Below, piece by piece: positions 6,457-39,379 of a stretch of 40,349 nucleotides of DNA (position 1 is the stretch's first letter; the number at the start of each line of letters is the position of its first letter). The stretch spans positions 1-40,349 of the forward strand of contig JAFXHB010000083.1 in the NCBI GenBank assembly GCA_017536605.1, written 5' to 3'. The stretch is from Alistipes sp. (GTDB taxonomy: Bacteria > Bacteroidota > Bacteroidia > Bacteroidales > Rikenellaceae). Below the pieces are notes generated by a model. That model saw nothing but the letters and a program-made list of their open reading frames with translations, had not been told where the DNA came from and did no database searches. The position numbers and the translations under genes were made by a program.

Positions 6457-9400
6457 TTAAAACGGTAATCCCATACCTGCCGAGACAAATACGCCTCTCT
6501 TGCCGTGTGGCTTATAGATGGAGAGTGTAAGCGATGTTGTTCCCGAGGCGGGCATACGGAATAGGTTAAAGTCTATTGAGAGATCTCCACCGTAGGCGAA
6601 GATATGTTTGCGATTTTTGAATGTTTGGAGGTTTGTGCCGTTATTTACCTCGCCAAGCAGGAGGTTGTCAAACGAGGCGTAGTCGAAACCGAGGTTGAGT
6701 CGTACTCGTTTGAAGTAGATGATTGAGCCGATACCACCCTCCGGACACCATATCGGCATCGCGTAGTTGAGCGAGGTGGCCACATAGTTATGATTTGCAA
6801 TCTCCGAGGTGTAGAAGCCACGCGGTACCAAACGTCCGGAGTGGAACGCGAGGTTGGAGAGGGCATTCTCCGCCTTGAAGCCTCCGAGCGAGGTTTGATA
6901 TACCCCCGCAATGGAGAGCGAGTGGTGCTTCATAAAGCCGGGGAAGTAGGCCTTTCCATAGGCGGAGATAAGGTGCGAGAAGTTGTTGTCGGCAGGGTTG
7001 AGCGCGTAGTTGAGCGACAGCACCTGTCCCCACTTTGGCAGGAAGTCCTTGTGGGCCAACTGCACCATATCCTGATAGCCAATACCGAATTGCAGGAGGT
7101 GCAAACCCTCCTTATAGCCAATCTTGGCGAGGTTTGATACCTTGCCACTCGTAAGATCAAGGTTGAGGTTGTCAAGTTTGGCAACCAAGCCGTTAGAGTA
7201 GTCGTAGCGTGCCGTGAATTGCGCATAACGGGTGTGGTAACCCGCTTGGAAGTAGAGAGGCAACGAGGCTGCTACGCCGACGTTGTAGTATTTGCCCTGT
7301 TTAGGTACTTCGTTTATTACAAGTTCCTGTTTGCCTGTTATAGGGTTTGTTATATACTCCGCCTTCTCGCCCGGAAGAATCAGAACATAGTCCTGCTTGA
7401 TTGGGTCGTAGAGGTAGGTGTAAGCCGAGTATAGTTGTTGTGTACCTCCATAGGTGGCGTGAATACTTAAATTGAGTCCTAAACCATAGTAGCGGAACGA
7501 GCCTTTGAAGATATGCCCCTCCTTGGCATTCCAACCCCAACTTGCGAAGCCGTCGGCGGTAGAGAGGAGGTTTTGCGACATTACCGTAACACCGAGGTTG
7601 AAGTCCAAAGCACCCTCCTCCGATAGTGCAAACGGGTCGTACGAAACGGGAGCCCACGAGTGGATATTGAAGAGGTGGGCGGCACCCGAATATCTGCGAT
7701 TGCGCAGCCTCTGTGTGTTGGCAGCGGCTCGCTGCATTGAGTCCACACCCACGAAGCGTACGGTGTCAAGGTTTATATTGTTCCACTGCTTACGTTGTGG
7801 ATTGACGACGTTACGTGGCAGGCGTGAAGGGAGTACCGTCGGCAGGGTATCGCGGTCTATGCTCTGCTTGGCGAGGTGGTATCCATATCGGTCGTAGGTG
7901 GTCATCAGCACCTTGCCACTATCGGCAGGCATAGGTGAGAATGAGCCATACTTTGAGGTTGAGATGCGCTTCTCCTCGTTTGTGCGGAGGTCGTAGCAGT
8001 GTACCTCGTCGTAGCCCGACTCTATGGAGCCGAAGTAGAGAACGCCATCTTTGGCACGAAGGTCGCTGATGGTGATATATGCCCCCTGTGTGATATGTTC
8101 AATGTCGTGATTTCTGCCTACGCGACCTATCCACATACCGCTGTCGTCCGTTGCGATAAAGTATAGGGCGTTGGTGTAGTTGTCGTATGCCAAGCCGTGA
8201 ATCTCAATATCGGAGGAGATTTTAATACGCAGATACTCCTCCTCGTGGCGAGGCTTCGGATTGCCGCGCACGATGTTGTACTCTCCATTCGGGAAATACT
8301 CCACCCACGCCAACTCGTGTTCGCTGATGGCGGTAGGGTAGAGGGCTCTACGCAAACGATTTATGGTGCGGGTGCGACCTCGCTCCAAGTCCATATAGCA
8401 CAACTTGGAGTTTACGCGCTCGGCAAAGAGAGTGCTGCGGCGATACTCGGTCCACCAAACCTTGTTGCCTACGACCTCGCTTGGGCGCGAAGATACGACA
8501 CCCGTATAGGCAAGATGTCTTGTCGTGCCATCGTCAAGGTCGGTTACCACAAATGCCGAATGGCGGTCAAGGGTTTGACACAACGAAAGCACCTGCCCCT
8601 CGCCATAGGGTTGTGGATAGCGGTGTTGTGTGAAGCCCTTTGTAGAGGTTGTGGAGATGCGTGTAGAGGAGTCCTCTCGCTCCGGAAGGGTGCGCCAATA
8701 GTCGTTCAGGTCGGCAAAGGTCTCTCGCACGAGTTTTGTCGTGGAGGTGTTGTAGTAACGCTTCATCGCCACCGCAGTAGTTGCGAAGACGTAAGGGTTG
8801 CGCACCGCATAGCGCACTATGTTGTTCCAGATATTTTCGTTGTATTTGGTGTTGGCGTAGGTGGTAATCTGGTAGCCCAAGCGGTAGTGGTCGGGGATAA
8901 ACTCGCGATATGAGCCACAGAACCACTTGTCAATGTTGCGTCGCTCCTTCGTAAAGTCGCCTACGGCACGATAGTGCATCGTGAAACTTGGTTGCAGGGC
9001 GCGTCCGAATGATGACATAGAGGTCTCGGAGAGTACAGCATCGCCCTCCAAACCCCACAGAGGCATAAAGAGAAGTCCTATGGTAGAACTCTGCTCGCCG
9101 AGGATGTAACTAAAAACGCGCACTACGCCTCGGTTTAGGTTGTTATACTGCACGGCGTGGCGATACTCGTGAGCCGCCAACTGTTTAAGCCAAGGCATAG
9201 AGTAACTATCTATCGAGGGGGAGGAGAGTATCTCGACACGCTTCGGAAGCCATATCACAAGTCCGTTTGACGAGAAGTTTTCGGGGTGGATTATGAACGG
9301 AATCTTCATCGGTCCGTGTCTAAAACCAAATCCGATATCGGGCTTGATACTCTGCGTGTAGTACATCATCTTGTAGCCGATGGTGCGAGCCGTATCGGGG

Positions 9401-9546
9401 TAGATAATGTTAATCTTGTCCCCTTTGAGTTTGTTCCAGCGCATATATGTCGGGTCTGCGCCCCACGAGTAATACTGCGCGGACGCTGTGCGTGCGCACG
9501 CGATGAGCGCGCACAAAACGACAATATATCGCCAAACATTCTTCAT
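6457..9546 (-). CDS. Large outer-membrane protein: putative zinc-peptidase-like N-domain, TolB-like propeller and C-terminal beta-barrel
   Basis: Signal peptide ending ASA-Q; AHEYRH plus downstream EGDA; propeller-like repeats; amphipathic strands and terminal Phe (GMGLPF). Confidence 0.6.
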   Translation of the reverse strand: MKNVWRYIVVLCALIACARTASAQYYSWGADPTYMRWNKLKGDKINIIYPDTARTIGYKMMYYTQSIKPDIGFGFRHGPMKIPFIIHPENFSSNGLVIWLPKRVEILSSPSIDSYSMPWLKQLAAHEYRHAVQYNNLNRGVVRVFSYILGEQSSTIGLLFMPLWGLEGDAVLSETSMSSFGRALQPSFTMHYRAVGDFTKERRNIDKWFCGSYREFIPDHYRLGYQITTYANTKYNENIWNNIVRYAVRNPYVFATTAVAMKRYYNTSTTKLVRETFADLNDYWRTLPEREDSSTRISTTSTKGFTQHRYPQPYGEGQVLSLCQTLDRHSAFVVTDLDDGTTRHLAYTGVVSSRPSEVVGNKVWWTEYRRSTLFAERVNSKLCYMDLERGRTRTINRLRRALYPTAISEHELAWVEYFPNGEYNIVRGNPKPRHEEEYLRIKISSDIEIHGLAYDNYTNALYFIATDDSGMWIGRVGRNHDIEHITQGAYITISDLRAKDGVLYFGSIESGYDEVHCYDLRTNEEKRISTSKYGSFSPMPADSGKVLMTTYDRYGYHLAKQSIDRDTLPTVLPSRLPRNVVNPQRKQWNNINLDTVRFVGVDSMQRAAANTQRLRNRRYSGAAHLFNIHSWAPVSYDPFALSEEGALDFNLGVTVMSQNLLSTADGFASWGWNAKEGHIFKGSFRYYGLGLNLSIHATYGGTQQLYSAYTYLYDPIKQDYVLILPGEKAEYITNPITGKQELVINEVPKQGKYYNVGVAASLPLYFQAGYHTRYAQFTARYDYSNGLVAKLDNLNLDLTSGKVSNLAKIGYKEGLHLLQFGIGYQDMVQLAHKDFLPKWGQVLSLNYALNPADNNFSHLISAYGKAYFPGFMKHHSLSIAGVYQTSLGGFKAENALSNLAFHSGRLVPRGFYTSEIANHNYVATSLNYAMPIWCPEGGIGSIIYFKRVRLNLGFDYASFDNLLLGEVNNGTNLQTFKNRKHIFAYGGDLSIDFNLFRMPASGTTSLTLSIYKPHGKRGVFVSAGMGLPF

Positions 9547-27372: not shown

Positions 27373-27512
27373 AACAATTTTTGTACAGAGTGTGCCAACT
27401 TTGGGTAAAAAAAATAGAAAAAATTAAAATTTTATTATAAGTTCAATTATTTAACTTTCAAAAAGTTGTGCGATTTAGGACAAAATCGTTGTCAAAAAAA
27501 TGCACTTTCCCT

Positions 27513-27545
27513 CTTGACAAACGCTATTTTTGTGTTATATATTTG
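27513..27545 (+). promoter_or_regulatory. Host sigmaA-type promoter facing the phage-like operon
   Basis: CTTG (27513-27516), 21-nt spacer, TATATTTG (27538-27545); overlapped by an inverted repeat TTGTCAA/TTGACAA. Confidence 0.65.
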
Positions 27546-27702: not shown

Positions 27703-28122
27703 ATGAATCGTGCTTTATTGCAAGGTGCGGTTGAGGGGTTGGTGTCTGCCTATGGATACACCTTTTTGGTGGAGCATAAGGAGCGTGCGCCATTCCACAT
27801 CACCGCCTATCCGGCAGCCTTTATGGCTCCCCCAAAGTTCAATAAACAAGAGGGACGTCGATTTGGAAAGATTACATACGATATTTCGCTGGTCTTGATG
27901 CGTCAGGGTGCCAAGTTGTCATCGGCGGAGCGCAACGAGCGATATGCCGATATGGAGCGAGAACTCGTGGAGATGTTCGTAAAGTTGAGCAAACTTCCGC
28001 AGATAGCCTCTGTAAATGACCTTACGATAACGCCATACAACTCGACGATAGACCATCACGGGGCTATTGCAATGGTGGCGACAGCGCAGGTAGCAACACT
28101 TTTTGAAGAGAATAAGTTATGA
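27703..28122 (+). CDS. Hypothetical phage-like protein (possible tail terminator/completion protein)
   Basis: 139 aa; YP.AF..P and ITYDISLVLM pattern and size fit tail-completion proteins; ATGA overlap with the next gene. Function is inferred. Confidence 0.4.
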   Translation: MNRALLQGAVEGLVSAYGYTFLVEHKERAPFHITAYPAAFMAPPKFNKQEGRRFGKITYDISLVLMRQGAKLSSAERNERYADMERELVEMFVKLSKLPQIASVNDLTITPYNSTIDHHGAIAMVATAQVATLFEENKL

Positions 28123-29087
28123 AGATAGATTTTTCACCTAACGATTATACCCCTATTGAGCAGGGGTTGTGCTTCGGCTTCTCTACGGAGAGCGAGGAGC
28201 CGACAGATGTTGAGGTTGCGATTGTCAATGCCGATACCGATGAGGTTGTTGCCACCCAACTATTGCGACAGGTTGTGTCGGGCAAGGTCAATATCGCCCC
28301 ATACGTGGAGCGATTCTCTCAACGTGAGCCAAAAGCCTTTGGTAAAGAGGGCTCCTCGCTCTCGCTCTTGGAGGTGGTGCGATATAAGATTCGTATCGGC
28401 GACGTTGAGTCAGAGAGCGTTGCGGTGTCGCCTCTCCGATATGAGTTCTCTGCCCCTGCACTCATTACGAAGATGCCTCTGCGCCGTAAAATCTTCTATG
28501 ATGACTGCGACGAGTTACTCTTCGCCGTGCAGGATAGTACCGACGTGGATGTGGTGATAATGCCAAATATCGGGGCGGTTAAAAGCCTCTCGTACAAGGC
28601 CGCTTCGGGTGTTGTGCGCCTTCTTCTTACACCTTCGGAGTTTGGGCAAGAGGCGAGAAGAGTCTCTGTACTCATCAAACTCAACGCGCAGGATTGGTGT
28701 AGCGTGGAGTACGAGGTGTTGCAGCGTCGCGGACGCTCTCTCTGCGTGGTATGGGAGTCGGCGTGTGGCTCAATGGAGCGTTACATCTTCCCGATGACTT
28801 ACGCCCTGCGTAACGAGGTTACGAAGCAGCGTGTCGGAGATGGCACAAACCTGAATGCAGTGGCGATTATGCGCTCCAAAATTGTGCGAGCGATCTCCAA
28901 CTACGAGCCTTGCGATGTGATTGCTGCATTATCCGATATTATCGCCTCGCCGAAGGTCTGGATTGAACTTAATGCTCTTCTGCACAGGGTAGATGTCGTT
29001 ACTTCGGAGGAGTCCTACAACCTTCTTGGAGAGCCTAACTTTGTTGAGTTGGATTTGCGTATAGAGAGTAGGAGGGTGGCGTTATGA
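28119..29087 (+). CDS. Putative distal-tail/baseplate protein
   Basis: 322 aa, beta-rich; C-terminal W....G..E.Y.F and II.SPKVWI pattern recalls Bacteroidota phage tail proteins. Confidence 0.45.
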   Translation: MKIDFSPNDYTPIEQGLCFGFSTESEEPTDVEVAIVNADTDEVVATQLLRQVVSGKVNIAPYVERFSQREPKAFGKEGSSLSLLEVVRYKIRIGDVESESVAVSPLRYEFSAPALITKMPLRRKIFYDDCDELLFAVQDSTDVDVVIMPNIGAVKSLSYKAASGVVRLLLTPSEFGQEARRVSVLIKLNAQDWCSVEYEVLQRRGRSLCVVWESACGSMERYIFPMTYALRNEVTKQRVGDGTNLNAVAIMRSKIVRAISNYEPCDVIAALSDIIASPKVWIELNALLHRVDVVTSEESYNLLGEPNFVELDLRIESRRVAL

Positions 29088-31462
29088 TAGAGTTGATTGT
29101 AGATGGTCAGGTGTGCGACTTGGGTGATATGCCCACCCTGCCACTCAACTTTGATGCGGAGAGCCTGACCGACGTTGAGGGTGGGCGCAGCGGGCGCACG
29201 GTGGAACTTAATCTCCGCTCTACGCCGAAGAATGATACGCTGTTTGGGGCTTCGTGCGACCTCTACGCTGCGGAGTCATTCAACGCTCGCCACCACTCGG
29301 CGGTGGTTGTGGAGCAGGGGCTGACACTCTTTGCGGGAACGCTCGTTCTGCTCGCTACGGAGGTTGGCAGTGGCTACAAGGTACGCATCGTGGCGGGAGG
29401 CTGCAAGTGGATAGACGACGCGGTGTCGGCATCGCTTGATGATTTGCCGATAGATTTTCAGGGCAAACTCACGCTCACGACGATAGAGAACTCTTGGGAG
29501 AGCGATAGTGCAGTGCGATTTCTGCCGGTCTATCGTGGCGACTACAATATGAGTACCTCCTCGCACTCGACACACCCCGTTGAGCATATTATGTTGTCGG
29601 ACGACTTTCACCCCTTTATCTCGGTTGCGGAGATGGTGCGCTCTATGTTTGCCGGTTATGGTTATACGCTCAAAAGCGACCTGCTTGATAGCGACCTCTT
29701 TGCCTCGCTCTATATGAGTGGCGACTACACCCGCAGCAACCTTGCGACGGATAGTGCCAAGTGCGACTTCTTGGCGCGTCGCGCAGCCCCAATAACCGCT
29801 ACCGCCGATAGTACGGGTAGGGTATACTCCTCAACCGCATTCGCCTCGCATACGCTGGGCAACATCGTCGATACGGCAAACCCCAACGCCATTGACAGTG
29901 AGGGCAACCTGATGAGCGACACCTTCTCAACGAATGGTTGCTTTACGACGAATGACGACGGGCAGATAGTCTTCAAGCCTGTAACCTCCGTGAATGTCGG
30001 CTTTGTGTTGCACGCGGAGTACACTACCGACTACAAAATCGCCACTCGTGAGCGACTCTTTGGCTTTGATGTCTTTGAGGGGTTGAACGGAGTGTATATT
30101 GAGTATGCCCTCAATAACGCATTCAAGGATTACCGTAGAAGCATATCTCCGAATACGCTCTATCGTGCCGTAGTCTTCAACCATATTGAGGGGTACGAGT
30201 ATCGTCTGGTAGAGAAGTTAAAGAGTAACGTAAAGTTGCAGATAGGCTTGTGGGCATCGCGCTCGGCGCAGGTGTTGAGTGCCTCGGCAGAGGGGGACTC
30301 CTTAAACCTCTACTATCGTGCCGTAGGCGAAGAGTCTTGGCAGCCCTACACCGATGATTGGGCCCTCTATGCCGGACACGTAGAGGAGGAGGGACAGGTA
30401 GATGTTGAGTGTACGGTGCGTATCCCTCCACAGGAGGTAAATCGTGGCGAGGAACTTATACTTGACAAGTTTTGGTTTGGCGGAGCCGAGTCGGGTATGA
30501 GCCTGACGCTCGGCACGGGAACATCGTTAAGACCATACTTTACCAACGTGGCGGGTTACGGCTCTACATTAACCTACGCTGACATCGCTCCGAAGCAGGT
30601 GCGCCAGATTGACCTTTTGAGGGCATTAGCGCAGATGTTTAACCTTGCTTTTATAACCGACGAGGAGCGAAAGGTTGTACGAATGGAGCCACTTGAAGAT
30701 GCCTACAAGGGTGGCAAGTTGGTAGATTGGACCTCGCGCATAGACTTTGCACAGCCGATAATGCTCTGCGATACGGGTATTGACCGCCCGCAAGATTATA
30801 TCCTCTCCTACATAGACGCGGATAGGGCGTCGCACCTCTACAACCTCGCCAACGATACGACGCTTGGAAGTTGGGCTTGGCGCAACCCGCTGTATGGTAC
30901 GACGCAGAGTACAAAACGTATTGGTAACCGACTCTTCACGACAACGCTGAATGCGGAGGGGGTGTTGGGGTGTGCCCCTTCGGCTTCGCTGTTGCAGGTG
31001 GGCGACGTTACCCTTGACGAGGCGGCAACCTATGGAGAGTTTACCCACCGTATAGTGAGTTATCGAGGTCTGATATCGTTGCCGAGTGGCGAGAATTGGA
31101 ACGGCAAAGGGTCAGCGCAGGGCTTTCCGTACGCAACATTTATAGATGGCGACAGCGGCATAAATCTCTGCTTCGAGGAGCGTGAAGGTGTAGAGGGACT
31201 TGCACGCTACTACAAAGAGGCACACCTTCGCGAAGAGTGCCGACAGAGGTTGTCGCTTACGCTGCAACTTACACCGGCAGAGATAGTGCATCTCACCAAA
31301 GATGATGGCCATAGTCCATCGGTATTGGATAGATACCGTTTTACGATATTGGGTGAGAGTGCGATATTTCGCTTGGTGCAAATTGAGGCGTGGGACCCGT
31401 TGCAGATGACAGTAAAGTGTGTTTTTCAACGTGAATTGGTAGATGGCTATGACGCAGTATGA
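29084..31462 (+). CDS. Putative tail hub/tip protein
   Basis: 792 aa; N-terminus IELIVDGQVCDL...LTDV...LRSTPKND.LF and later QIDLLRALAQMFNL and VDWTSRID, as in Bacteroidota siphovirus tail proteins. Confidence 0.55.
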   Translation: MIELIVDGQVCDLGDMPTLPLNFDAESLTDVEGGRSGRTVELNLRSTPKNDTLFGASCDLYAAESFNARHHSAVVVEQGLTLFAGTLVLLATEVGSGYKVRIVAGGCKWIDDAVSASLDDLPIDFQGKLTLTTIENSWESDSAVRFLPVYRGDYNMSTSSHSTHPVEHIMLSDDFHPFISVAEMVRSMFAGYGYTLKSDLLDSDLFASLYMSGDYTRSNLATDSAKCDFLARRAAPITATADSTGRVYSSTAFASHTLGNIVDTANPNAIDSEGNLMSDTFSTNGCFTTNDDGQIVFKPVTSVNVGFVLHAEYTTDYKIATRERLFGFDVFEGLNGVYIEYALNNAFKDYRRSISPNTLYRAVVFNHIEGYEYRLVEKLKSNVKLQIGLWASRSAQVLSASAEGDSLNLYYRAVGEESWQPYTDDWALYAGHVEEEGQVDVECTVRIPPQEVNRGEELILDKFWFGGAESGMSLTLGTGTSLRPYFTNVAGYGSTLTYADIAPKQVRQIDLLRALAQMFNLAFITDEERKVVRMEPLEDAYKGGKLVDWTSRIDFAQPIMLCDTGIDRPQDYILSYIDADRASHLYNLANDTTLGSWAWRNPLYGTTQSTKRIGNRLFTTTLNAEGVLGCAPSASLLQVGDVTLDEAATYGEFTHRIVSYRGLISLPSGENWNGKGSAQGFPYATFIDGDSGINLCFEEREGVEGLARYYKEAHLREECRQRLSLTLQLTPAEIVHLTKDDGHSPSVLDRYRFTILGESAIFRLVQIEAWDPLQMTVKCVFQRELVDGYDAV

Positions 31463-31742
31463 ACAGAAACTTATATTTCCTCTCTACAATATGATTAGAG
31501 GGAAGAGCTCCGCAGAGGCTATCAGGATATTGTGGCGTCAAGGTCTGTTGGACCGGAAGGGTATGGAGCGAGGCTACTTTGTGCGTGAGGTGGCACGACG
31601 TGTCCGCGAGGGGGAGATGAAGAGCCTTGCGATAACCAACGTCGCAATCGAAGCCCGATGCTCCTACGAGAAGGTACGACGAGCCGTCTATGAAACCGAA
31701 AAAGAGAACAAGAAAAGAGTAACAAATGGAGACAAAAATTAA
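31443..31742 (+). CDS. Small basic protein with a possible C-terminal HTH
   Basis: 99 aa (alternative start 31449), Arg/Lys-rich; AITNVAIEARCSYEKVRRAVY resembles a helix-turn-helix. Confidence 0.45.
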   Translation: MAMTQYEQKLIFPLYNMIRGKSSAEAIRILWRQGLLDRKGMERGYFVREVARRVREGEMKSLAITNVAIEARCSYEKVRRAVYETEKENKKRVTNGDKN

Positions 31743-32586
31743 AATTACAAACGCTGCCGAGCAGTGCGTCATTGACATTGAAGGAGTTATTGGCGTGAGC
31801 GAAGAGAGCCAATTTGCGCACCCCTCGCAGCGCGTCGCCACCTATGAACGCTTCCGAGAGGTGGTAGATGAGATTTCCGCCATTGAGGCATCGGAGGTGG
31901 TGGTGAATATCCGCTCGGCGGGAGGAGATGTGAACGACGCACTCCTAATCTACGAGGCACTTTCGGCACTTGAAACCAAGGTTACGACTCGTTGCTACGG
32001 ATATGTCGCTTCGGCAGCAACAATTATTGCGCAGGCCGCCTCCGAGGGCTGTCGTGAGATCGCCTCCTCGGCACTCTACCTGATACACCAATCGAGTTGT
32101 GTGGTGGAGGGTAATGCCTCGGACGTGGAGGAGCGTCTAAACCTTCTGCGCAAGACCGACGAGCGCATATCTTCGCTCTACGCCGAGCGTTCGGGTCGTG
32201 AGGTTGCCCAATTTGAGCAACTGATGGCCGAGAATGGCGGACGAGGTCGCTGGCTCTCGCCGGAGGAGACCGTTGAGAATGGGTTGGCCGATGTCGTCAT
32301 AGGTCGTGAGGAGAGTGAGCGACGCGAGTCTATCGTGGATAGGGTGAAGCGTTGGTTCTCGCCTGCCGAGAGCGAGAAGGAGGAGTCCTCCGATATAAAT
32401 GTCCTTCACACCCCCGTTGATGCGGTGGCGACAAGTTCTGTCATAGCATTTGAGGAGGGGCAGAAGCAGGCCTCACCCTCAAAGGTTAAGCCGGTTGAGG
32501 ACCCGTCGGTTGAGGAGATGCGCCTGTCGGGCAACATCTCGGCATACGACGAGGATGCAAAGCGACTTCGCCTGATGGGTATGTAG
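31726..32586 (+). CDS. ClpP-like (S14) prohead maturation protease with a short scaffold-like tail
   Basis: IDIEGVIG, VNIRSAGGDV..AL.IY, G.VASAATII (Ser), YLIH (His), WLSPEE.V..GLAD. Confidence 0.85.
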   Translation: METKIKITNAAEQCVIDIEGVIGVSEESQFAHPSQRVATYERFREVVDEISAIEASEVVVNIRSAGGDVNDALLIYEALSALETKVTTRCYGYVASAATIIAQAASEGCREIASSALYLIHQSSCVVEGNASDVEERLNLLRKTDERISSLYAERSGREVAQFEQLMAENGGRGRWLSPEETVENGLADVVIGREESERRESIVDRVKRWFSPAESEKEESSDINVLHTPVDAVATSSVIAFEEGQKQASPSKVKPVEDPSVEEMRLSGNISAYDEDAKRLRLMGM

Positions 32587-32631
32587 CCCAAAACAAAAGA
32601 AAAACTTTAACAACTAAAAAAGAGAAAAACT

Positions 32632-33603
32632 ATGTTAATTGAAAATCCAAAAGTCTATTCGAATACCGAAGTTGATTCAATCTTTTTCCGTCCATCTTTC
32701 TGCGGAAAGTCAGCCGAAGAGATGGGTATTCACGTAATCTACAATATGCCAATGCCTACAACTGTGCAGGTTTTCGCAAATAAGCGTCGTGTTTTGGAGC
32801 CGTTTGAGTCGGGTTGGAGTGGCTCTGCTACAAATAAGCCGATGCAGGTAACTATCGCGATGAACCGCGTGAAGGCGGAGTCGTCGTACTCGGCAGAGGA
32901 CTACTTCTCTACGGTGTTTGAGTTGATTACCAACTCCTCGGACGTAAACCTCGGCGACCTGACCGGCACCGAACTTGAAAAGGCGGAGACCGAGTTGTTC
33001 CGTAAGGCGATTGCCAAGGAGATCTATGCGACAATGTGGTTTGGCGACGAGAACGGTGAGTTCTACAGTTACGACTCCTTCAATGGCTTCTTGCCAACCC
33101 TTATTCGTACTGCCGTTGATAATGGCACCTCTACGAACTACCAGATTGTTCAGGAGAAGCCGGCAAAGACCGCTGTTCAGATCTTCCGCGATGCGTGGGA
33201 TAACGCTTCGGGAACTATCCGCACTCTCGCGTCGGAGGGCAACCTCGCCTTCTACGTAAGTTCGGACGTGTATGACGACTACCAATTCTACCTTGACGAG
33301 AATGGTACCAACTCGGCATACGTTGATATGCAGAGTGGTCGCCAGAAGTTGTACTACCACGGTATCCCTGTGATTGAGGTGCCAATCACCGGTGCAAACT
33401 TGGACTCTCTCGGCTCGTTCTGCCTCTTGACCGACAGTCGTAACCTTGTCTTGGCACTCAACACCGCCTCTTCGCCGGAGAACGAGGTGAGAATGTGGTA
33501 CAACCCTGACGAGATGGAGAATCGCCAGCGTGCCGTATTCTTGGCAGGTACAGCAATCGTTGATCTCGATTTGGTGTCGGGCTACATCGTTACTTCATAC
33601 TAA
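32632..33603 (+). CDS. Putative major capsid protein
   Basis: 323 aa directly after the head protease; WFGD, FNGF, FYVS..VY..Y, Y.GIPVIEVP, N.V.A.N and WYN.DE..NR pattern; strongly A-rich translation-initiation region. Confidence 0.7.
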   Translation: MLIENPKVYSNTEVDSIFFRPSFCGKSAEEMGIHVIYNMPMPTTVQVFANKRRVLEPFESGWSGSATNKPMQVTIAMNRVKAESSYSAEDYFSTVFELITNSSDVNLGDLTGTELEKAETELFRKAIAKEIYATMWFGDENGEFYSYDSFNGFLPTLIRTAVDNGTSTNYQIVQEKPAKTAVQIFRDAWDNASGTIRTLASEGNLAFYVSSDVYDDYQFYLDENGTNSAYVDMQSGRQKLYYHGIPVIEVPITGANLDSLGSFCLLTDSRNLVLALNTASSPENEVRMWYNPDEMENRQRAVFLAGTAIVDLDLVSGYIVTSY

Positions 33604-33615
33604 TAGTGGCTCCTG

Positions 33616-34089
33616 ATGGTTGACCAGAAACCTGTTGGTGGGGTAGATGCCGTTGTCCTCTACCCCGCCGATGCGGTCAAACACGCACTCTTTTCGCAGG
33701 GTGGTTGCGAGGTTGAGTTTTGGGAGGACGTGCAGGGCGTGGCCGTTAATCTGATTGAAGATGCCTCCCTCTACGAGGAGGTTGCCAAGTCGGTGAATGG
33801 CATCGTCGGAGTAACCCATAACCTGACTCTCGTAGCACGCTACAAAGATGCGGGTGAATGGTTGGCGACACCATTTCTGGATAGGTTGGCACAGGAGGGT
33901 GCTATCGCTACGGTCGCTTTGAGTGATGGTCGCCGTATAGTTGTCGGCTACTCCCAACACTTTGGCGAGGAGCAACCCCTGATGCTCGAAAGCGTAACCA
34001 CCTCTTCGGGTAAAGCGTTGCTTGACACTCCGAGCGTAACCTTGCGATTGGTGTCGCACGATACGGCGTTGGCCGCAGAGATAATTTAA
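33616..34089 (+). CDS. Putative tail tube / major tail protein
   Basis: 157 aa; GGV..V.LY N-terminus, DGR..VVG and SGK...D...VTL.L pattern of Bacteroidota phage tube proteins. Confidence 0.5.
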   Translation: MVDQKPVGGVDAVVLYPADAVKHALFSQGGCEVEFWEDVQGVAVNLIEDASLYEEVAKSVNGIVGVTHNLTLVARYKDAGEWLATPFLDRLAQEGAIATVALSDGRRIVVGYSQHFGEEQPLMLESVTTSSGKALLDTPSVTLRLVSHDTALAAEII

Positions 34090-34107
34090 TTAACCAGAGA
34101 AAAAGAT

Positions 34108-35328
34108 ATGGACAAAACAGAGAGAAAAAGTATAATATGTGTCCCCAAAAACGAGGCCGACACCTACTACGCCACAAGTGGGCGACGTGTAGAGAGCGAT
34201 GACTATTGGCGGTGGGGCGTTGATAACTGCTTTCCGGAGGCTTTGGCCCTACTTTCGCGCCGCTCAACGGTGCATCGTCGTATCGTAAACGATAAGGCTG
34301 ACTACATATCGGGCAAGGGATTTACCTACGACTGCGAGATTCCGTTGCTTGGGGAGATTGTGGCGTGTGCCAACGGCGAGGGTGAGTCGTTGCGACAGGT
34401 TGTAAATAAGGTCGCTTTTGATAAGATACTCTTTGGAAACGCCTTTATGGAGGTTGTAACCGATGAGGCGCACTCTTTCTTGTCGTTCTACCACCAAGAT
34501 GCTTCGCGTTGTCGCGTTGCGAAGTGTGGTCGTCATATCCTCATACATCACGATTGGTCGCAGTTTAAGCGTGGCGAGGCAGTGTCATTGCCCCTCTATC
34601 CGAACTTTGAGAAGCAGAGCGACGGTATGCTCCACTCAATAATCCACTATAAAGATTATGAGCCGATGTTTGAACACTACGGAGTACCACAGTATATCGC
34701 CGGAATGAATGTCTCGGCGATAGCCTACAAGACGGACCGTTGGAATATCGCCCGTTTGGACTCTTCGTTCCAACCATCGGGAATAATGATGTTGGAGAAC
34801 ACGATTGACAGCGAGGAGGAGGCGGCGAGGTTGATGCGCGTTGCCGAGAGTCGCTTTGCGGGACGTCCCGGACAGGTGATGTTCATCATCAAGGGTGGTA
34901 GCGAGGAGGAGAGTTCCCGCTTTATACCGATTGAGTCAAAGAGCGATGGCGATTGGAAGGCTCTGCACGAGCAATCTACCAACGATATTGTGGTGGCGCA
35001 CTCGTGGTTCCGTTCGTTGAGTGGTCTGGACTACACGACAGGCTTCAATGCCGAGCGAATACTCCACGAGTACGAGGTTGCACTCAATACGGTGATTCTC
35101 GGCGAGCAGGCGGAGTTGATGGAGCCGATTCTCAACGCCATCTCCACCATACTCTCGGTAGATGCCTCTTCGCTCGTGATAGTCAATCGCCCGCCGACCA
35201 ACTCAAAGCCTGTCTATATGAAGGTGTGGGAGGCTCGCAAGGCCGATGGTCTTGACTACGACGAGAGCGATGAGCGTCAGCAGCTCTTCCTGTCGGAGAT
35301 TGTGGGTAGTAATGTAACAAGAATTTAA
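34108..35328 (+). CDS. Phage portal protein
   Basis: 406 aa; WG.DN.FP..L......S.VH..I...K..YI.G.G, D..LFGNAF, HYGVP.Y, IVVAH pattern. Confidence 0.75.
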   Translation: MDKTERKSIICVPKNEADTYYATSGRRVESDDYWRWGVDNCFPEALALLSRRSTVHRRIVNDKADYISGKGFTYDCEIPLLGEIVACANGEGESLRQVVNKVAFDKILFGNAFMEVVTDEAHSFLSFYHQDASRCRVAKCGRHILIHHDWSQFKRGEAVSLPLYPNFEKQSDGMLHSIIHYKDYEPMFEHYGVPQYIAGMNVSAIAYKTDRWNIARLDSSFQPSGIMMLENTIDSEEEAARLMRVAESRFAGRPGQVMFIIKGGSEEESSRFIPIESKSDGDWKALHEQSTNDIVVAHSWFRSLSGLDYTTGFNAERILHEYEVALNTVILGEQAELMEPILNAISTILSVDASSLVIVNRPPTNSKPVYMKVWEARKADGLDYDESDERQQLFLSEIVGSNVTRI

Positions 35329-35332
35329 GGCT

Positions 35333-35806
35333 ATGAAGAGTTTAATTACACAAGAGATGGTTGTGGCGTTGGCGTTTGGCGATGGAGAGTATCTCTCGCC
35401 GGAGGCGGTCTGCGAGTCCGATATAGCCATTGCCGAGTCGCGTTATCTGCGACCTGTGGTGGGCGACAAGTTGTGGCAGGCACTCTTGGAGGGTAAATAC
35501 CCGACACTCGTTGAGGAGTATGTTGCCCCTGCGCTTGCTATGGCGGTGCGCACGTTGATACAGCCGGCGTTGAATGTGCGCACGGGGCAGTGCGGACTCT
35601 CAATCGCTTCGACCTATCGCTCGGATAGCGCAACGAGGTCGGCTACGGAGTCGCTGTTGCGTTCACTTGTAAAACGCCGAAAGGCTCTATTCAAGCGTCT
35701 TTCGGACCATTTGAAAACCAATGCTGCGGAGTATGTCGAGTATGATGTATCCCGCGACGCATTACAAAGATGTTCAATTTATGGAGGTATCGTTCAAATT
35801 CATTAG
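35333..35806 (+). CDS. Putative head-tail adaptor (DUF6712-like)
   Basis: 157 aa, helical; I..AE..YLRPVVG..L...L motif; directly after the portal. Confidence 0.5.
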   Translation: MKSLITQEMVVALAFGDGEYLSPEAVCESDIAIAESRYLRPVVGDKLWQALLEGKYPTLVEEYVAPALAMAVRTLIQPALNVRTGQCGLSIASTYRSDSATRSATESLLRSLVKRRKALFKRLSDHLKTNAAEYVEYDVSRDALQRCSIYGGIVQIH

Positions 35807-36227
35807 TGGTGCAGTTTTGGGCATATTGTCGCTCTTTGCACCGATAAAAGCAACAATTATCTGTACGTTGCTGTTTGTTGCCGTTGATTTTATCTTCGGA
35901 GTCCTCGCCTCGCGTGAGGAGAGTCGTCGTCAGGGTAAGCAGTGGTACTTCTCCTCGCAGGAGGCGTGGCGCACTGTGCGTAAGTCGTGTTTTGTACTGC
36001 TTACGATCGTTATGACGTGGTTGGTTGAGAGTTGTGTGCTTGATTTTATGAATCTTCACCTGACACGAATGGTTGCGGGTGTGATTTGCGGTGTTGAGAT
36101 GTGGTCCTTGTTGGAGAATATCTCTGTGCTTTCAGATGCACGCATATTCGTATGGCTACGTCAATATGTCCACCGAAGAATCGAAAAGGAGATAGGTCCT
36201 TGCGATGATGACAAGGGGGCTGCGTAA
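35781..36227 (+). CDS. Phage holin
   Basis: 148 aa from MEVSF; 3-4 TM segments, D...GV.AS, T.RK, E.WS.LEN, charged C-terminus; directly upstream of the lysin. Confidence 0.8.
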   Translation: MEVSFKFISGAVLGILSLFAPIKATIICTLLFVAVDFIFGVLASREESRRQGKQWYFSSQEAWRTVRKSCFVLLTIVMTWLVESCVLDFMNLHLTRMVAGVICGVEMWSLLENISVLSDARIFVWLRQYVHRRIEKEIGPCDDDKGAA

Positions 36228-36630
36228 CAACAATCCGGGTAATATCCGACTCGGCTCGTTCAAGTATCGGGGCGAGGTGGCGAGGAGTAGCGACAGGGCA
36301 TTTAGGCAGTTTGAGAGTATGGCGTGGGGCTATCGTGCAATGTTTGTGCTGTTGCACACCTACGCCCTGCGCTACCAATGTCGCACCCTACGCGACTACA
36401 TTTCGCGCTATGCTCCTCCATCGGAGAATAACACCGAGGCGTATATACGACGTGTGGCTTGTACCACACACCTTGCTCCCGATGAGGTTCTCTCTACGAC
36501 AGATGGTGCGGTGATGACGGCTGTTGTAGCAGCGATGTCGGAGGTGGAGAATGGCATAGCCGCCAATATGAGTGATATTTGGCGTGGTTGGGAACTATTT
36601 ATTGCAGATTTTCAACCTCTTCGGCATTAA
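36205..36630 (+). CDS. Putative endolysin (lysozyme-like, RNNNPGNIR family)
   Basis: RGLRNNNPGNIR, F.QF....WG.RA, I.RYAPP.ENNT.AYI, AM..VENG. Confidence 0.78.
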   Translation: MMTRGLRNNNPGNIRLGSFKYRGEVARSSDRAFRQFESMAWGYRAMFVLLHTYALRYQCRTLRDYISRYAPPSENNTEAYIRRVACTTHLAPDEVLSTTDGAVMTAVVAAMSEVENGIAANMSDIWRGWELFIADFQPLRH

Positions 36631-36636
36631 TTTTTT

Positions 36637-36690
36637 CAGAGTTACCTAATTTGCAGTTGCTATGTATAATTAGGTAACTTTGTTTTTTTT
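36637..36690 (+). terminator. Intrinsic terminator closing the phage-like operon
   Basis: cagagttacctaatt (36637-36651) / aattaggtaactttg (36668-36682) followed by 8 T. Confidence 0.75.
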
Positions 36691-36743
36691 ACAACATTTT
36701 TTTACAACATATCTCTTTGCTTTTTTCTTTCGGAATAATTTCT

Positions 36744-36751
36744 TACCTTTG
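36744..36751 (+). promoter_or_regulatory. -7 promoter element for the lipoprotein islet
   Basis: TACCTTTG followed by a ~280-nt leader. Confidence 0.5.
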
Positions 36752-37034
36752 TACCGCTGGTGATGCTATCATTGGCATACATATATTAGTGAAAGTGTTT
36801 CGCTAATCCTTGATAACGAAATTTGGCGATTTTGTACAAGTAAGGATAAGCAATAAAACACTCACCACCGTATTTGGTATATTCTTTTCTATATACCATT
36901 CGGTGTGGGGTATTGTTTATTTACTTGTGGGCCACGCCAAATGCCTGTTATCAGATAAACGAACGACCTCACACTTTCTTTGTTTTTATAAACGCCCTTT
37001 TGGGGTTGGTGGGCAAACAAAAAATTCATTTATT

Positions 37035-37466
37035 ATGAAAAAACTATTTTTATTAGTAGTTGTTGCAATCTCTGTTGCATCGTGTGGCACATTGAAGAAT
37101 TCTGCCACTTACCGTAGTTTCAGCGTAAGTACTCCGTATGCTGTGCCGGTTATTGCCGATTTAGACATTGCAAGTACAAGAATTACCTATGCCTATATTC
37201 CGACAAAGGTTGTGAAGAATGGCGGTGATGGCAATGTAATCAACACAGCCATTCGAGAAGCGTTGATGACCAATGGTAATGCAGATGTGTTGGTCGGACT
37301 TGAAACTCAAATCAAGTATAATTCGAGAAAGAAAATCAAGTCTATTACTCTCACTGGCTATCCAGCCAAATACAAAAATTTTAGGAATATAGAGACTAAT
37401 ACTTGGTATTCTAACCCTTATTTCCAAGAGCCACATCAAAGACCAAGTGTCTTGAATGTTAAATAA
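37035..37466 (+). CDS. Hypothetical lipoprotein (143 aa), AT-rich
   Basis: MKKLFLLVVVAISVASC lipobox; A-rich upstream region supports this start over 36810. Confidence 0.75.
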   Translation: MKKLFLLVVVAISVASCGTLKNSATYRSFSVSTPYAVPVIADLDIASTRITYAYIPTKVVKNGGDGNVINTAIREALMTNGNADVLVGLETQIKYNSRKKIKSITLTGYPAKYKNFRNIETNTWYSNPYFQEPHQRPSVLNVK

Positions 37467-37482
37467 AAGTAAGGTATATGTT

Positions 37483-37830
37483 ATGAGAAAGATATTGTAC
37501 ATATTTATATGCTTATTTGCACTCACTGCAACGAGTTGCGACAAATATAGCTTATTCGGTAACTCTTGGGTAACTATCGAGTATGACTATGAGGATTACT
37601 ATATTTTCAAGTATAAAGATTTAAAAGTTACCTACAATGGAAAAGAGTACAATTCAATTGGTAGATATAAAGTTCCAGAAGGCTCAATAGTGAAATTGGA
37701 ATGGTATTGGGATAATGAGCACGCAGGAGCAGATACATGGAAAAAAGCCTCATATGAAGTAAGTGCCATTGGCTCAATGAGTATAGTAATTGAAGGAGGA
37801 GATGCACATGTTACATTCAAGAACAAGTAA
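37483..37830 (+). CDS. Hypothetical lipoprotein (115 aa), AT-rich
   Basis: MRKILYIFICLFALTATSC-DK lipobox; beta-rich mature part. Confidence 0.72.
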   Translation: MRKILYIFICLFALTATSCDKYSLFGNSWVTIEYDYEDYYIFKYKDLKVTYNGKEYNSIGRYKVPEGSIVKLEWYWDNEHAGADTWKKASYEVSAIGSMSIVIEGGDAHVTFKNK

Positions 37831-37912
37831 CCAATAATTGTTATGATGCACCAAAGTAGATAACTCCTAAATTAGTATAATTATGCTAAATTTAACTATC
37901 TTTGTGGTAGTT

Positions 37913-39379
37913 ATGAGGCGTATATTGGAGAATCTACGAAATCGTATTGCAGAGATACCGATGGCGATAGTGATGTTGCTATTTGCCCTCGGTATCTCTT
38001 TTGCTGAATATATCTGCCTGCCGATGTGGCTGTGTATAACGATAGTGCTATCATCGCTTCTTGGAGTGCTGTTTGTTCGTGGTATGTGGCAGAGGTTGGC
38101 GGTTGCGATATTGGTTGTGTCGCTTGGTGTAACACTGCACTCGCTCTCCTATGTGGGAGAGGTGCCGTACAATCGTCCGCTGGATATGACGCTCAAAATC
38201 ACGCGCTCAACGACGGTGCGTGGCGACTATGCAGGTGCGGAGGCGACCATCTGCGAGTGTGAAGAGCCCTCGCTTGTGGGACGTATGGTTGTGGTGTGGT
38301 GCGACTCGGCAACAACCCTTACGGCGCGGGACCGCATCTCTCTACGGCAGAAGATTCGCCCCTTCCGCGAGGAGCGCAGGGCGTATGCCGAACTGATGCA
38401 CCACAGGGGTTTTGTAGGTGCTACAACCATCTACCCACAACAGCACTTTACGCTTACGCCTGCCCGCTACACCTCGTTGCACGATTGGGCTACGGAGCGA
38501 CTACGTGAGCAGATACCTGCGGGCGATGCGCGGGCTGTGGTGTTGGCGATGGTTACGGGTTATCGTGGTGAGATAGATACCGCCTTGCGCGAGAAGTATG
38601 CCCTGTCGGGTGCTTCGCACCTCTTGGCGGTGTCGGGACTCCATATAGGCATTGTCTTTATGCTGATAAATATCTTGTTATTGCCGCTGTTGCTCCTCAC
38701 ATACGGTAAGGTGGCGAGGTCGGTATTGGCTATTTTGCTGATTTGGTTGTATGTGGTGTTGTGTGGCGCACCTCCGAGTGCGATACGCGCTGCGGTGATG
38801 TTTTCGCTCTTGCAGATAGCCCTCTCTTCGCCCTATCGCTATCTATCGTTGAATGTACTCGCCGGCACAGCCCTTATTATGGCGATGTTTGATACACACC
38901 TTATATTTGACATCTCGTTTCAACTCTCCTTCTTGGCAGTTGCGGGCATACTCCTTTGGGCAGTCCCTGCCTGTCGGTTGTTGAGGACTCCTTACCGCTT
39001 GGTAAATGGTGTTGTGGCGGTGCTATTGGTTGGTGTATCTTCCACAGTAGCAACCCTCCCGATTGTGTCGGAGAGTTTTGGCATCGTGTCGCTTATTGGT
39101 GTGATAATCAACCCGATAGTGATTGCTCTGGCTAATGTGTTGGTTGTGGCAGGCGTTTTTACGATGTTGATTCCGATACCTGTCGTGGCGAGCCTTACGG
39201 AGGGTGTCGCGCATCTGCAAAATACGATTGTGGAGTGGGTGCAGTCGCTTCCGTGGGGATACTTTGAGTATAAGATGCCGGAGTGGCTCGTGTGGGTAAT
39301 ATATCTTGTATTTGCAGCAATAACCCTATTTGTTTGGTCAATAAAGCGCGAGAGGCGTTCAGAAATTGCGGATTATTAG
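37913..39379 (+). CDS. comEC: ComEC/Rec2 competence (DNA uptake) membrane protein without the C-terminal MBL domain
   Basis: SGASHLLAVSGLHIG, PSAIRAAVM, FDISFQLSFLAV; multi-TM; TATCTTTG promoter element at 37897-37904 supports the 37913 start. Confidence 0.9.
   Translation: MRRILENLRNRIAEIPMAIVMLLFALGISFAEYICLPMWLCITIVLSSLLGVLFVRGMWQRLAVAILVVSLGVTLHSLSYVGEVPYNRPLDMTLKITRSTTVRGDYAGAEATICECEEPSLVGRMVVVWCDSATTLTARDRISLRQKIRPFREERRAYAELMHHRGFVGATTIYPQQHFTLTPARYTSLHDWATERLREQIPAGDARAVVLAMVTGYRGEIDTALREKYALSGASHLLAVSGLHIGIVFMLINILLLPLLLLTYGKVARSVLAILLIWLYVVLCGAPPSAIRAAVMFSLLQIALSSPYRYLSLNVLAGTALIMAMFDTHLIFDISFQLSFLAVAGILLWAVPACRLLRTPYRLVNGVVAVLLVGVSSTVATLPIVSESFGIVSLIGVIINPIVIALANVLVVAGVFTMLIPIPVVASLTEGVAHLQNTIVEWVQSLPWGYFEYKMPEWLVWVIYLVFAAITLFVWSIKRERRSEIADY

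What the first reader, a model, noticed from the sequence alone, without database searches (positions are those of the whole stretch)
27703..36630. Portal and capsid present but no terminase or tape-measure gene
Seen: none of the 11 ORFs has a recognisable Walker A/B ATPase (TerL) or is a long helical, Ala/Gly-rich tape-measure protein. The largest ORF (792 aa) is beta-rich and tail-tip-like. Known: a portal needs a terminase to fill heads, and a long tail needs a tape measure. Inference, three options: (a) a split-locus GTA with the missing genes elsewhere; (b) DNA-free or short-tailed particles with another role (decoy, cargo delivery, killing); (c) an anti-phage or satellite-like module that interferes with or borrows an infecting phage's packaging machinery.
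Basis: partly seen in the sequence, partly recalled or inferred. Interest (0 to 1): 0.75.

Follow-up and report, generated by a model that had tools for sequence, protein, structure and literature searches.

The report
Ruler-less tamed phage particle of Alistipes
These eleven genes are the particle-building half of an old virus-derived kit kept by nearly all Alistipes-family gut bacteria: the DNA-packing motor sits intact at a second chromosome site and the tail-length ruler gene is gone, so the cells likely make stub-tailed particles that would carry pieces of their own DNA to other cells.

Summary
Observation confirmed: the 11-gene cassette has a portal, capsid, head protease, tail tube, tail hub, holin and lysin, but no terminase or tape measure (TMP). 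The two absences have different causes.

Terminase: an intact TerL lies on contig C59, beside a CI-like repressor and a 101-aa gene. Portal occurs in 275 of 300 and TerL in 277 of 300 family genomes, in the same 24 of 31 genera, mostly single-copy, under purifying selection and tracking gyrB. In this genome the repressor's likely operator scores best directly upstream of the cassette.

TMP: really lost. Related wild phages carry a 745-1491-aa TMP right after the hub gene. Several other genera keep only a 54-255-aa C-terminal stub there. Alistipes has none (0 of 27 genomes), and the tube gene is also missing in 9 of 30 Alistipes loci.

Best reading: a split-locus, stub-tailed, gene-transfer-agent-like system in Bacteroidota (0.6). 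Particles, packaging and transfer are untested. Seven literature searches found no description. This scan noted the same system, and the TMP stub, in five other windows.

The parts
27439..27457 (.). Palindromic site of the TTCA-N5-TGAA type, likely operator of the CI-like repressor encoded at the terminase locus on contig C59
   Evidence: Best site in the 1.42-Mb assembly (22.1 bits) for a matrix built from 37 relatives' CI/terminase intergenic regions; 0 of 200 column-shuffled matrices reach this score. It lies in the gap shared with divergent mqnA.
27514..27545 (+). Likely promoter: TTGACA plus a Bacteroidetes-type TAnnTTTG box (box type recalled)
   Evidence: Sequence; the same pattern lies within the ~260-300 bp upstream in 11 of 31 cassette loci
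27703..28122 (+). o1, 139 aa; likely head-tail joining/terminator protein (inferred from position and size only)
   Evidence: Homologues sit between the chaperone and gp10-like genes of wild phages; no informative family hit
28119..29087 (+). o2, 322 aa; tail-tip protein in the distal-tail position (fold untested)
   Evidence: Homologue precedes the hub gene in wild phages; no library hit
29084..31462 (+). o3, 792 aa; gp27/Tal-type baseplate hub with an inserted jelly-roll domain (about residues 220-489), likely receptor-binding
   Evidence: Model pLDDT 89; Foldseek top hits are T5, lambda and T1 tail tips; VIA Z 11.8 to the 7-7-1 baseplate (299 aligned, rmsd 5.5), Z 9.9 to Mu gp44; insert Z 8.6-9.2 to phage spike/fibre and TNF-like domains
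31443..31462 (+). o3/o4 junction: where wild phages carry the tape measure and other genera carry a TMP-tip stub; here the genes overlap
31443..31742 (+). o4, about 97-99 aa; small protein with a homologue just before the head protease in the related prophage; possibly DNA-binding (untested)
31726..32586 (+). o5, 286 aa; ClpP-type head maturation protease with a likely C-terminal scaffold part; Ser and His motifs present
   Evidence: phrog_94 E 8e-41, PF00574; motifs
32632..33603 (+). o6, 323 aa; major capsid protein
   Evidence: phrog_1623 E 1e-8; phrog_212 in 10 of 30 homologues; 44% identical to the prophage gene in the same position
33616..34089 (+). o7, 157 aa; tail-tube-fold protein, dispensable in relatives
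   Evidence: Model pLDDT 94; VIA Z 8-9 to phage 80alpha, SPP1, monocin and RcGTA tail proteins; Atlas lead PF25595 at 0.86; present in 21 of 30 Alistipes loci
34108..35328 (+). o8, 406 aa; portal protein
   Evidence: found in 275 of 300 family genomes
35333..35806 (+). o9, 157 aa; DUF6712, likely head-tail adaptor (inferred from position)
   Evidence: PF20459; follows the portal in wild phages too
35721..36227 (+). o10, holin (true start probably near 35781)
   Evidence: PF05105 above cut-off
36205..36630 (+). o11, 141 aa; endolysin-like protein
   Evidence: phrog_873 E 2e-42

Best explanation
The cassette is the structural and lysis locus of a phage-derived, host-inherited particle system of Rikenellaceae whose intact large terminase and repressor lie at a second locus and whose tape measure has been lost, and it likely builds small DNA-filled heads with a stub tail that would act as a gene transfer agent. 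Shown: two loci, intact motor, family-wide co-occurrence, purifying selection, host-like trees, TMP reduction and loss, and a shared palindrome in this genome. Inferred steps: (1) a signal, likely DNA damage acting through RecA-stimulated self-cleavage of the CI-like S24 repressor, lifts repression of the 101-aa gene plus terL and, in this genome, of the cassette; (2) protease/scaffold, capsid and portal form proheads; (3) TerL, which has no recognisable small subunit, fills them with host DNA without sequence preference, with the 101-aa protein as a possible helper; (4) adaptor o9 and o1 close the head and join, with few or no tube rings, to o2 and the hub o3, whose inserted jelly-roll domain would bind the recipient surface; (5) holin and lysin release the particles; (6) with no TMP channel, DNA would be ejected into the periplasm and taken up by recipient machinery such as ComEC.
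For: TerL (464 aa, phrog_38 E 8e-85) keeps Walker A, Walker B and nuclease aspartates invariant in 24 of 24 aligned sequences. Portal is in 275 of 300 and TerL in 277 of 300 family genomes, present in the same 24 and missing from the same 7 of 31 genera. They are at least 0.7 Mb apart in 9 single-contig Alistipes genomes, but contiguous (CI, terL, protease, capsid, portal) in G081 and linked in G077. dN/dS is 0.02-0.43 wherever computable in 11 pairs of relatives. Distances correlate with gyrB in 19 genomes (Mantel rho 0.57 portal, 0.38 TerL; 8 of 10 and 7 of 10 supported splits recur). GC3 is host-like. No integrase or replication gene lies in the window. A complete prophage of the same family in G022 shows what was dropped: integrase, replication, TerS, chaperone, gp10-like gene, TMP, fibre genes. 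A profile of 13 full-length phage TMPs hits 8 of 10 gap-locus mini-ORFs at its last ~40-65 positions (E 4e-8 to 3.5e-5). In lambda the TMP C-terminal helix sits in the tail tip (PMC10721106, passages). Precedent: FpGTA has two operons and ~40-nm particles without visible tails carrying ~9 kb (PMC12946183, section 9).
Against: No particle, packaged DNA, transfer or expression was observed; the RNA runs were uninformative. The faecal particle study that found FpGTA reports GTA-like packaging in Gram-positive families and names none for Rikenellaceae, although that family was abundant in its samples (PMC12946183, section 9 and passages). The operator upstream of the cassette is not general: sites above 13 bits occur in only 6 of 31 relatives' cassette loci, and none was found at the cassette in the 5 complete genomes searched. 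No TerS was identified, and TerL starts 10-20 residues shorter than two prophage TerLs. With no TMP, no obvious spanin and often no tube, DNA delivery across a Gram-negative envelope is unexplained. G141 (99% complete) keeps TerL but has no portal or hub match. The portal tree does not show a single domestication. This assembly is only 76% complete, so a divergent TMP on a missing contig cannot be excluded for this genome alone.
Confidence: 0.6

Rival explanations
1. DNA-filled or empty stub-tailed particles are made but serve another role than gene transfer, such as decoys for antibodies or receptors, release of DNA for biofilm, or killing or priming of neighbours through the hub's binding domain.
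For: The parts needed to inject DNA (TMP, often the tube) are the ones lost, while head and motor are kept. G081 keeps head, motor and repressor with no hub or tube match.
Against: FpGTA particles also lack visible tails (PMC12946183, section 9) and RcGTA ejects only into the periplasm (PMC7296036, abstract and passages). Hub and o2 stay under purifying selection. An intact nuclease-ATPase argues against empty particles.
Confidence: 0.2
2. The two loci act inside the cell against, or together with, related temperate phages: the repressor gives immunity, and host-encoded TerL, portal and capsid poison or redirect phage assembly and packaging.
For: Closely related wild phages infect the same hosts (portal 52-66%, TerL 54-62% identity), so subunits could mix. 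A conserved CI-like repressor is part of the system.
Against: Catalytic residues are intact rather than dominant-negative. A whole ordered morphogenesis and lysis set is kept. G022 carries both the system and a full prophage of the same family. No integrase or primase as in satellites.
Confidence: 0.13
3. It is a decaying prophage remnant with no current function.
For: Genes have been lost repeatedly (tube, o1, lysin, chaperone, TMP), and a few good genomes lack one locus.
Against: Open frames in over 90% of 300 family genomes, dN/dS far below 1 with synonymous sites near saturation, clean gene-sized losses, conserved promoter and operator motifs.
Confidence: 0.03

Closest known systems
FpGTA of Faecalibacterium prausnitzii (PMC12946183; section 9 read)
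   Same: Gut anaerobe, two separate chromosomal operons, TerL, portal, scaffold, capsid, baseplate and lysis genes, conserved across the genus, particles without visible tails.
   Different: FpGTA is in Bacillota, described as probably podovirus-like, with TerL and a candidate TerS in the head operon, and its particles were shown. Here the source is a long-tailed Bacteroidota phage family, TerL sits with a CI-like repressor apart from the head genes, and no particle has been shown.
RcGTA of Rhodobacter capsulatus (PMC7296036, PMC9662315; passages)
   Same: Siphophage-derived, vertically inherited, multi-locus, no replication genes, shortened tail, hub with a sugar-binding-type domain.
   Different: RcGTA keeps a ~216-residue TMP and five tube rings; here the TMP is a 54-255-aa tip or absent and the tube gene is dispensable. 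Different phylum, and the nearest relatives found are Bacteroidota phages.
Temperate long-tailed phages of Rikenellaceae (prophage in G022:C31; IMG/VR loci L085-L112, L157-L166)
   Same: Same gene order and clear homology for TerL, o1, o2, hub, protease, capsid, tube, portal and DUF6712.
   Different: They carry TerS, a chaperone, a gp10-like gene and a 745-1491-aa TMP; the G022 prophage also has integrase, replication and fibre genes. The 101-aa gene was not found in 123 viral loci.
Non-canonical LexA repressors of Bacteroidetes (PMC8565304; passages)
   Same: Phage-CI-like HTH plus S24 repressor with a dyad-N5-dyad operator.
   Different: [quoted passage not shown]

Membership tests
Gene transfer agent (viriform) | Genes derived from a tailed phage | tested here: met
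Gene transfer agent (viriform) | No own replication or integration genes; fixed in the chromosome | tested here: met
   None in the window or beside terL; housekeeping flanks that vary between species
Gene transfer agent (viriform) | Vertical inheritance and maintenance by selection | tested here: met
   a single origin is unresolved
Gene transfer agent (viriform) | Functional DNA-packaging motor | tested here: met
   Sequence level only: catalytic motifs invariant; activity not measured
Gene transfer agent (viriform) | Controlled induction in a subpopulation | tested here: inconclusive
   CI-like repressor and shared palindrome in this genome; not general in relatives; no usable RNA data
Gene transfer agent (viriform) | [quoted passage not shown] | not testable with these tools
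   Needs purified particles and long-read sequencing
Gene transfer agent (viriform) | Heritable gene transfer to recipients | not testable with these tools
   Needs a marker-transfer assay
RcGTA family (Rhodogtaviriformidae) | Orthology to the RcGTA g1-g15 cluster | not tested
   No direct comparison was run; only a superfamily-level fold match of o7 to an RcGTA tail protein (Z 8.2); nearest relatives found are Bacteroidota phages
RcGTA family (Rhodogtaviriformidae) | Tape measure protein in the tail | tested here: not met
Intact inducible prophage | Integrase, replication, TerS and TMP in one block | tested here: not met
   against the G022 prophage
Phage satellite (PICI or capsid-forming PICI) | Integrase and primase, mobile and patchy distribution (features recalled) | tested here: not met
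   None found; near-universal single copy in the family
Tailocin | Tail with tape measure and no head (features recalled) | tested here: not met
   Head genes kept, TMP lost

The most novel reading that the evidence does not exclude
Alistipes and its relatives carry a working gene transfer agent, of a kind not found in print for Bacteroidota in my searches, built from a long-tailed phage whose tape measure was whittled from over 1,000 residues to a ~55-residue tip and then to nothing. A siphophage-type hub docks directly on the head without ruler, and in some species without tube, and delivers host DNA to the recipient's own uptake machinery under a dedicated, damage-cleavable repressor.
Probability: 0.4. 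Interest if true: 0.88.

Novelty: new variant of a known kind. Interest (0 to 1): 0.72.

Why it matters
Alistipes and relatives are abundant gut bacteria of people and livestock. A family-wide particle that moves random chromosomal DNA would be an unrecognised route of gene exchange in the gut, and would mean some Alistipes 'viral' contigs in virome sets are host loci (several of the 43 IMG/VR hits are the TMP-less cassette). Structurally, the family gives a graded natural series (full TMP, tip only, none; tube kept or lost) that tests directly whether a siphophage tail tip can assemble and deliver DNA without a tape measure. Cultured strains carry the portal gene (for example Alistipes putredinis DSM 17216, locus L292), so it is testable now.

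Tried and rejected
TMP elsewhere in this genome: PF10145 found nothing; the G022 prophage TMP hit only G022 itself and one long frame in G009, 2 of 25 genomes; profiles of 13 full TMPs and of the TMP tip found nothing here (best E 0.19); the most coil-rich long ORFs look like other proteins, judged by eye. Profiles for TerS (three families), the chaperone and the gp10-like gene found nothing in this genome. The 101-aa gene as TerS: the complex prediction with TerL gave no answer (not evidence either way); no PHROG or Pfam hit; 440 homologous clusters without annotation; not found in 60 genomes of other families or in 123 viral loci. o1 and o2 stayed without a fold. PDB sequence searches for o7, o3, o2 and the capsid gave nothing significant. 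Expression: the two RNA-labelled runs and one guessed-RNA run showed flat depth like the DNA run and very long contigs, so DNA carry-over is likely and nothing can be said. The repressor as the SOS LexA: a recA-like frame is in the assembly (C112) but that contig has no site among the 13 above 9 bits. A third locus through operator search in 5 complete genomes: two extra weak sites lie by unrelated-looking genes. The portal tree was only a quick tree and the one-clade test did not finish. The tube search in five genomes had no positive control in the same call. Literature searches found no description of the system; subscription papers are not covered.

Full report
Setting. The window is the whole contig C74 of a 1.42-Mb, 150-contig assembly, 76% complete. 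Named relatives are Alistipes and other Rikenellaceae. The cassette (27703-36630, 11 ORFs, + strand) sits between mqnA and comEC in housekeeping DNA. Its GC3 (0.54-0.64) matches that of neighbouring genes (0.58-0.70).

What the genes are. o5 is a ClpP-type head protease, o8 a portal, o9 DUF6712, o10 a holin and o11 a lysin-like protein. o6 is the capsid protein on moderate evidence: 'major head protein' phrog_212 in 10 of 30 homologues and phrog_1623 in 26 of 30. The model of o3 (pLDDT 89) matches tail-tip hubs: T5, lambda and T1 tips by Foldseek with low TM-scores, and Z 11.8 (299 aligned, rmsd 5.5) to the phage 7-7-1 baseplate and Z 9.9 to Mu gp44 by VIA. Residues ~220-489 form an inserted jelly roll like phage spike/fibre domains (Z 8.6-9.2). 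The model of o7 (pLDDT 94) has the tail-tube/Hcp fold (Z 8-9; no Foldseek hit at E<=0.001); this superfamily also includes terminators and distal-tail proteins, so 'tube' also rests on position. o1, o2 and o4 have homologues in wild phages but no assigned fold. No ORF has terminase motifs.

The terminase is elsewhere. PF03237 hit contig C59. There, a 464-aa TerL (phrog_38, E 8e-85) follows a 101-aa ORF, and a CI-like HTH+S24 repressor is transcribed divergently. Walker A (43-49), Walker B (D149, D150) and nuclease aspartates 308, 315, 440, 443 are invariant in 24 of 24 aligned sequences, 2 of them prophage copies. The three-gene block recurs in 7 of 7 loci and 15 of 16, with changing flanks.

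Both loci are family-wide. The portal was found in 24 of 24 same-genus genomes and 0 of 16 from other families; TerL in 24 of 24, with one weak hit among the 16. Across 300 family genomes the portal is in 275 (E<=0.001) and TerL in 277 (E<=1e-30), both in the same 24 of 31 genera and both missing from the same 7 (19 genomes). Some TerL matches may be prophage copies. In 9 single-contig Alistipes genomes the loci are at least 0.7 Mb apart. In G081 repressor, terL, protease, capsid, portal and DUF6712 form one block with no hub or tube match in the genome, and in G077 terL is linked to capsid and portal; both have a short gene before terL that could be a TerS (untested). dN/dS in 11 pairs of relatives (not including this window's copy) is 0.02-0.43 where not saturated. 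In 19 genomes portal and TerL distances follow gyrB (rho 0.57 and 0.38); kin are not independent, so this shows congruence, not more. A quick portal tree left one origin neither shown nor excluded: two phage rows fall in an unresolved fork among host copies.

The tape measure is really gone. G022 holds a second, complete prophage of the same family: integrase, repressor, replication, TerS, TerL (54%), chaperone-like gene, o1, gp10-like gene, o2, hub, an 893-aa TMP (phrog_167, phrog_3336), o4, protease, capsid, tube, portal (52%), DUF6712, lysis and fibre-like genes. Of 43 IMG/VR loci with the portal, 19 have a 1060-1491-aa ORF between hub and protease (many near-identical), grouped with that TMP by iterative search. 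In 12 Alistipes chromosomal loci with o4 called, the hub-to-o4 gap is -12 to 70 bp. In 10 other loci the gap is 177-821 bp and holds a short ORF; a profile built only from 13 full-length phage TMPs hits 8 of these 10 at its last positions (1031-1097 of 1098; E 4e-8 to 3.5e-5). A profile of this tip found short frames (54-255 aa) in 16 of 29 genomes of other genera (8 were in the training set; the position of the other 8 was not checked) and in 0 of 27 Alistipes genomes, where the 3 hits are 743-904-aa frames. In lambda the TMP sets tube length and its C-terminal helix sits in the tail tip (PMC10721106, passages), which fits a tip kept after the ruler was lost (inference). The tube gene is missing in 9 of 30 Alistipes and 5 of 16 other loci and was not found elsewhere in five such genomes. 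So the tail has been shortened step by step while head, motor and hub stayed under selection.

A regulatory link. The gap between repressor and 101-aa gene carries a conserved palindrome over the promoter. A matrix from 37 relatives, own genome held out, ranks window 27439 first in the assembly (22.1 bits), then two sites in the C59 gap (16.5 each), then 11.3; 0 of 200 shuffled matrices reach 22.1, though 3 also peak in this AT-rich gap. Against this: only 6 of 31 relatives' cassette loci have a site above 13 bits, and none was found at the cassette in 5 complete genomes. The box differs from the two published Bacteroidetes LexA boxes (PMC8565304, passages). The repressor keeps an Ala-Gly site and Ser/Lys motifs (their role in RecA-stimulated cleavage is recalled). 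I looked for this site because an earlier scan note (e1-5263542) mentioned it.

How it most likely works. Derepression leads to proheads, filling by a TerL with no recognisable TerS, closure by o9/o1, docking of o2 and the hub with few or no tube rings, and lysis. Without a TMP channel, DNA probably reaches only the periplasm, as described for RcGTA (PMC7296036, abstract and passages); uptake through ComEC is recalled from RcGTA work, and comEC is adjacent here and in 4 of 7 loci, which may only reflect the old insertion site. All these steps are inferred. I put 0.6 on GTA-like function, 0.2 on particles with another role, 0.13 on phage interference, 0.03 on a dead relic.

Comparison and novelty. 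It works like FpGTA and RcGTA and meets the genomic criteria for a GTA-type viriform (PMC9662315, passages), but the defining experimental criteria are untested, so it is a candidate, not a member. The FpGTA paper (outline, passages, section 9, supplement search) has no mention of Alistipes and reports no Rikenellaceae packaging event. Searches found no paper on this system; subscription journals and bioRxiv supplements were not covered. This scan reported the same system in four other windows and the 57-aa TMP tip in a fifth (seen after my); these are AI notes, not independent support. What this window adds is both loci in one assembly, the operator ranked genome-wide, and the end state with no TMP at all.

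Noticed in passing
window 36810-37830: Two low-GC (35-38%) lipoprotein-like ORFs between the lysin and comEC; absent in relatives, and a contig in run X14 bridges 36555 to 37939, so this is a strain-specific insertion.
   Followed up: partly
window 37883-39379: comEC lies next to the cassette here and in 4 of 7 relatives' loci; possibly relevant to DNA uptake, possibly just the insertion site.
   Followed up: partly
L105:2366-4750, L088:858-1850, also L091, L092, L093, L095: Wild phages of this family carry extra 41-82-aa copies of the TMP C-terminal motif downstream of the TMP gene (four in L105), suggesting insertions that duplicate the TMP tip or swappable tips; a ready route to a free-standing tip.
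   Followed up: no
L134 (G081:C1, about 1483000-1491000) and L135 (G077:C2): Head-plus-motor versions with terL linked to capsid and portal, no tube and no full hub, and a lengthened DUF6712 (330-382 aa).
   Followed up: partly
G141, G174, G228, G240: Genomes 94-99% complete with TerL but no portal match; G228 has the hub near a contig end (likely assembly gap), G141 has no hub match either.
   Followed up: partly
L115, L117, L121, L082, L084: Some non-Alistipes cassettes still keep the phage chaperone-like gene upstream of o1 although their TMP is only a stub.
   Followed up: no
L074, L075, L073: Cassette copies in IMG/VR whose capsid gene is split by an insertion with a 558-aa ORF, so local inactivation occurs in some strains.
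   Followed up: no
L022:11592-11897 (G000:C59): The 101-aa gene before terL is a Rikenellaceae-restricted family with invariant Y10, W73 and D88 and no known fold or phage homologue.
   Followed up: partly
G022:C31 about 18800-55000 (L048, L049): Apparently complete temperate prophage of the family that gave rise to the cassette, in a genome that also has the domesticated loci.
   Followed up: yes
window 6457-9546: A 1029-aa ORF with no Pfam hit upstream of the penicillin-binding protein gene.
   Followed up: no
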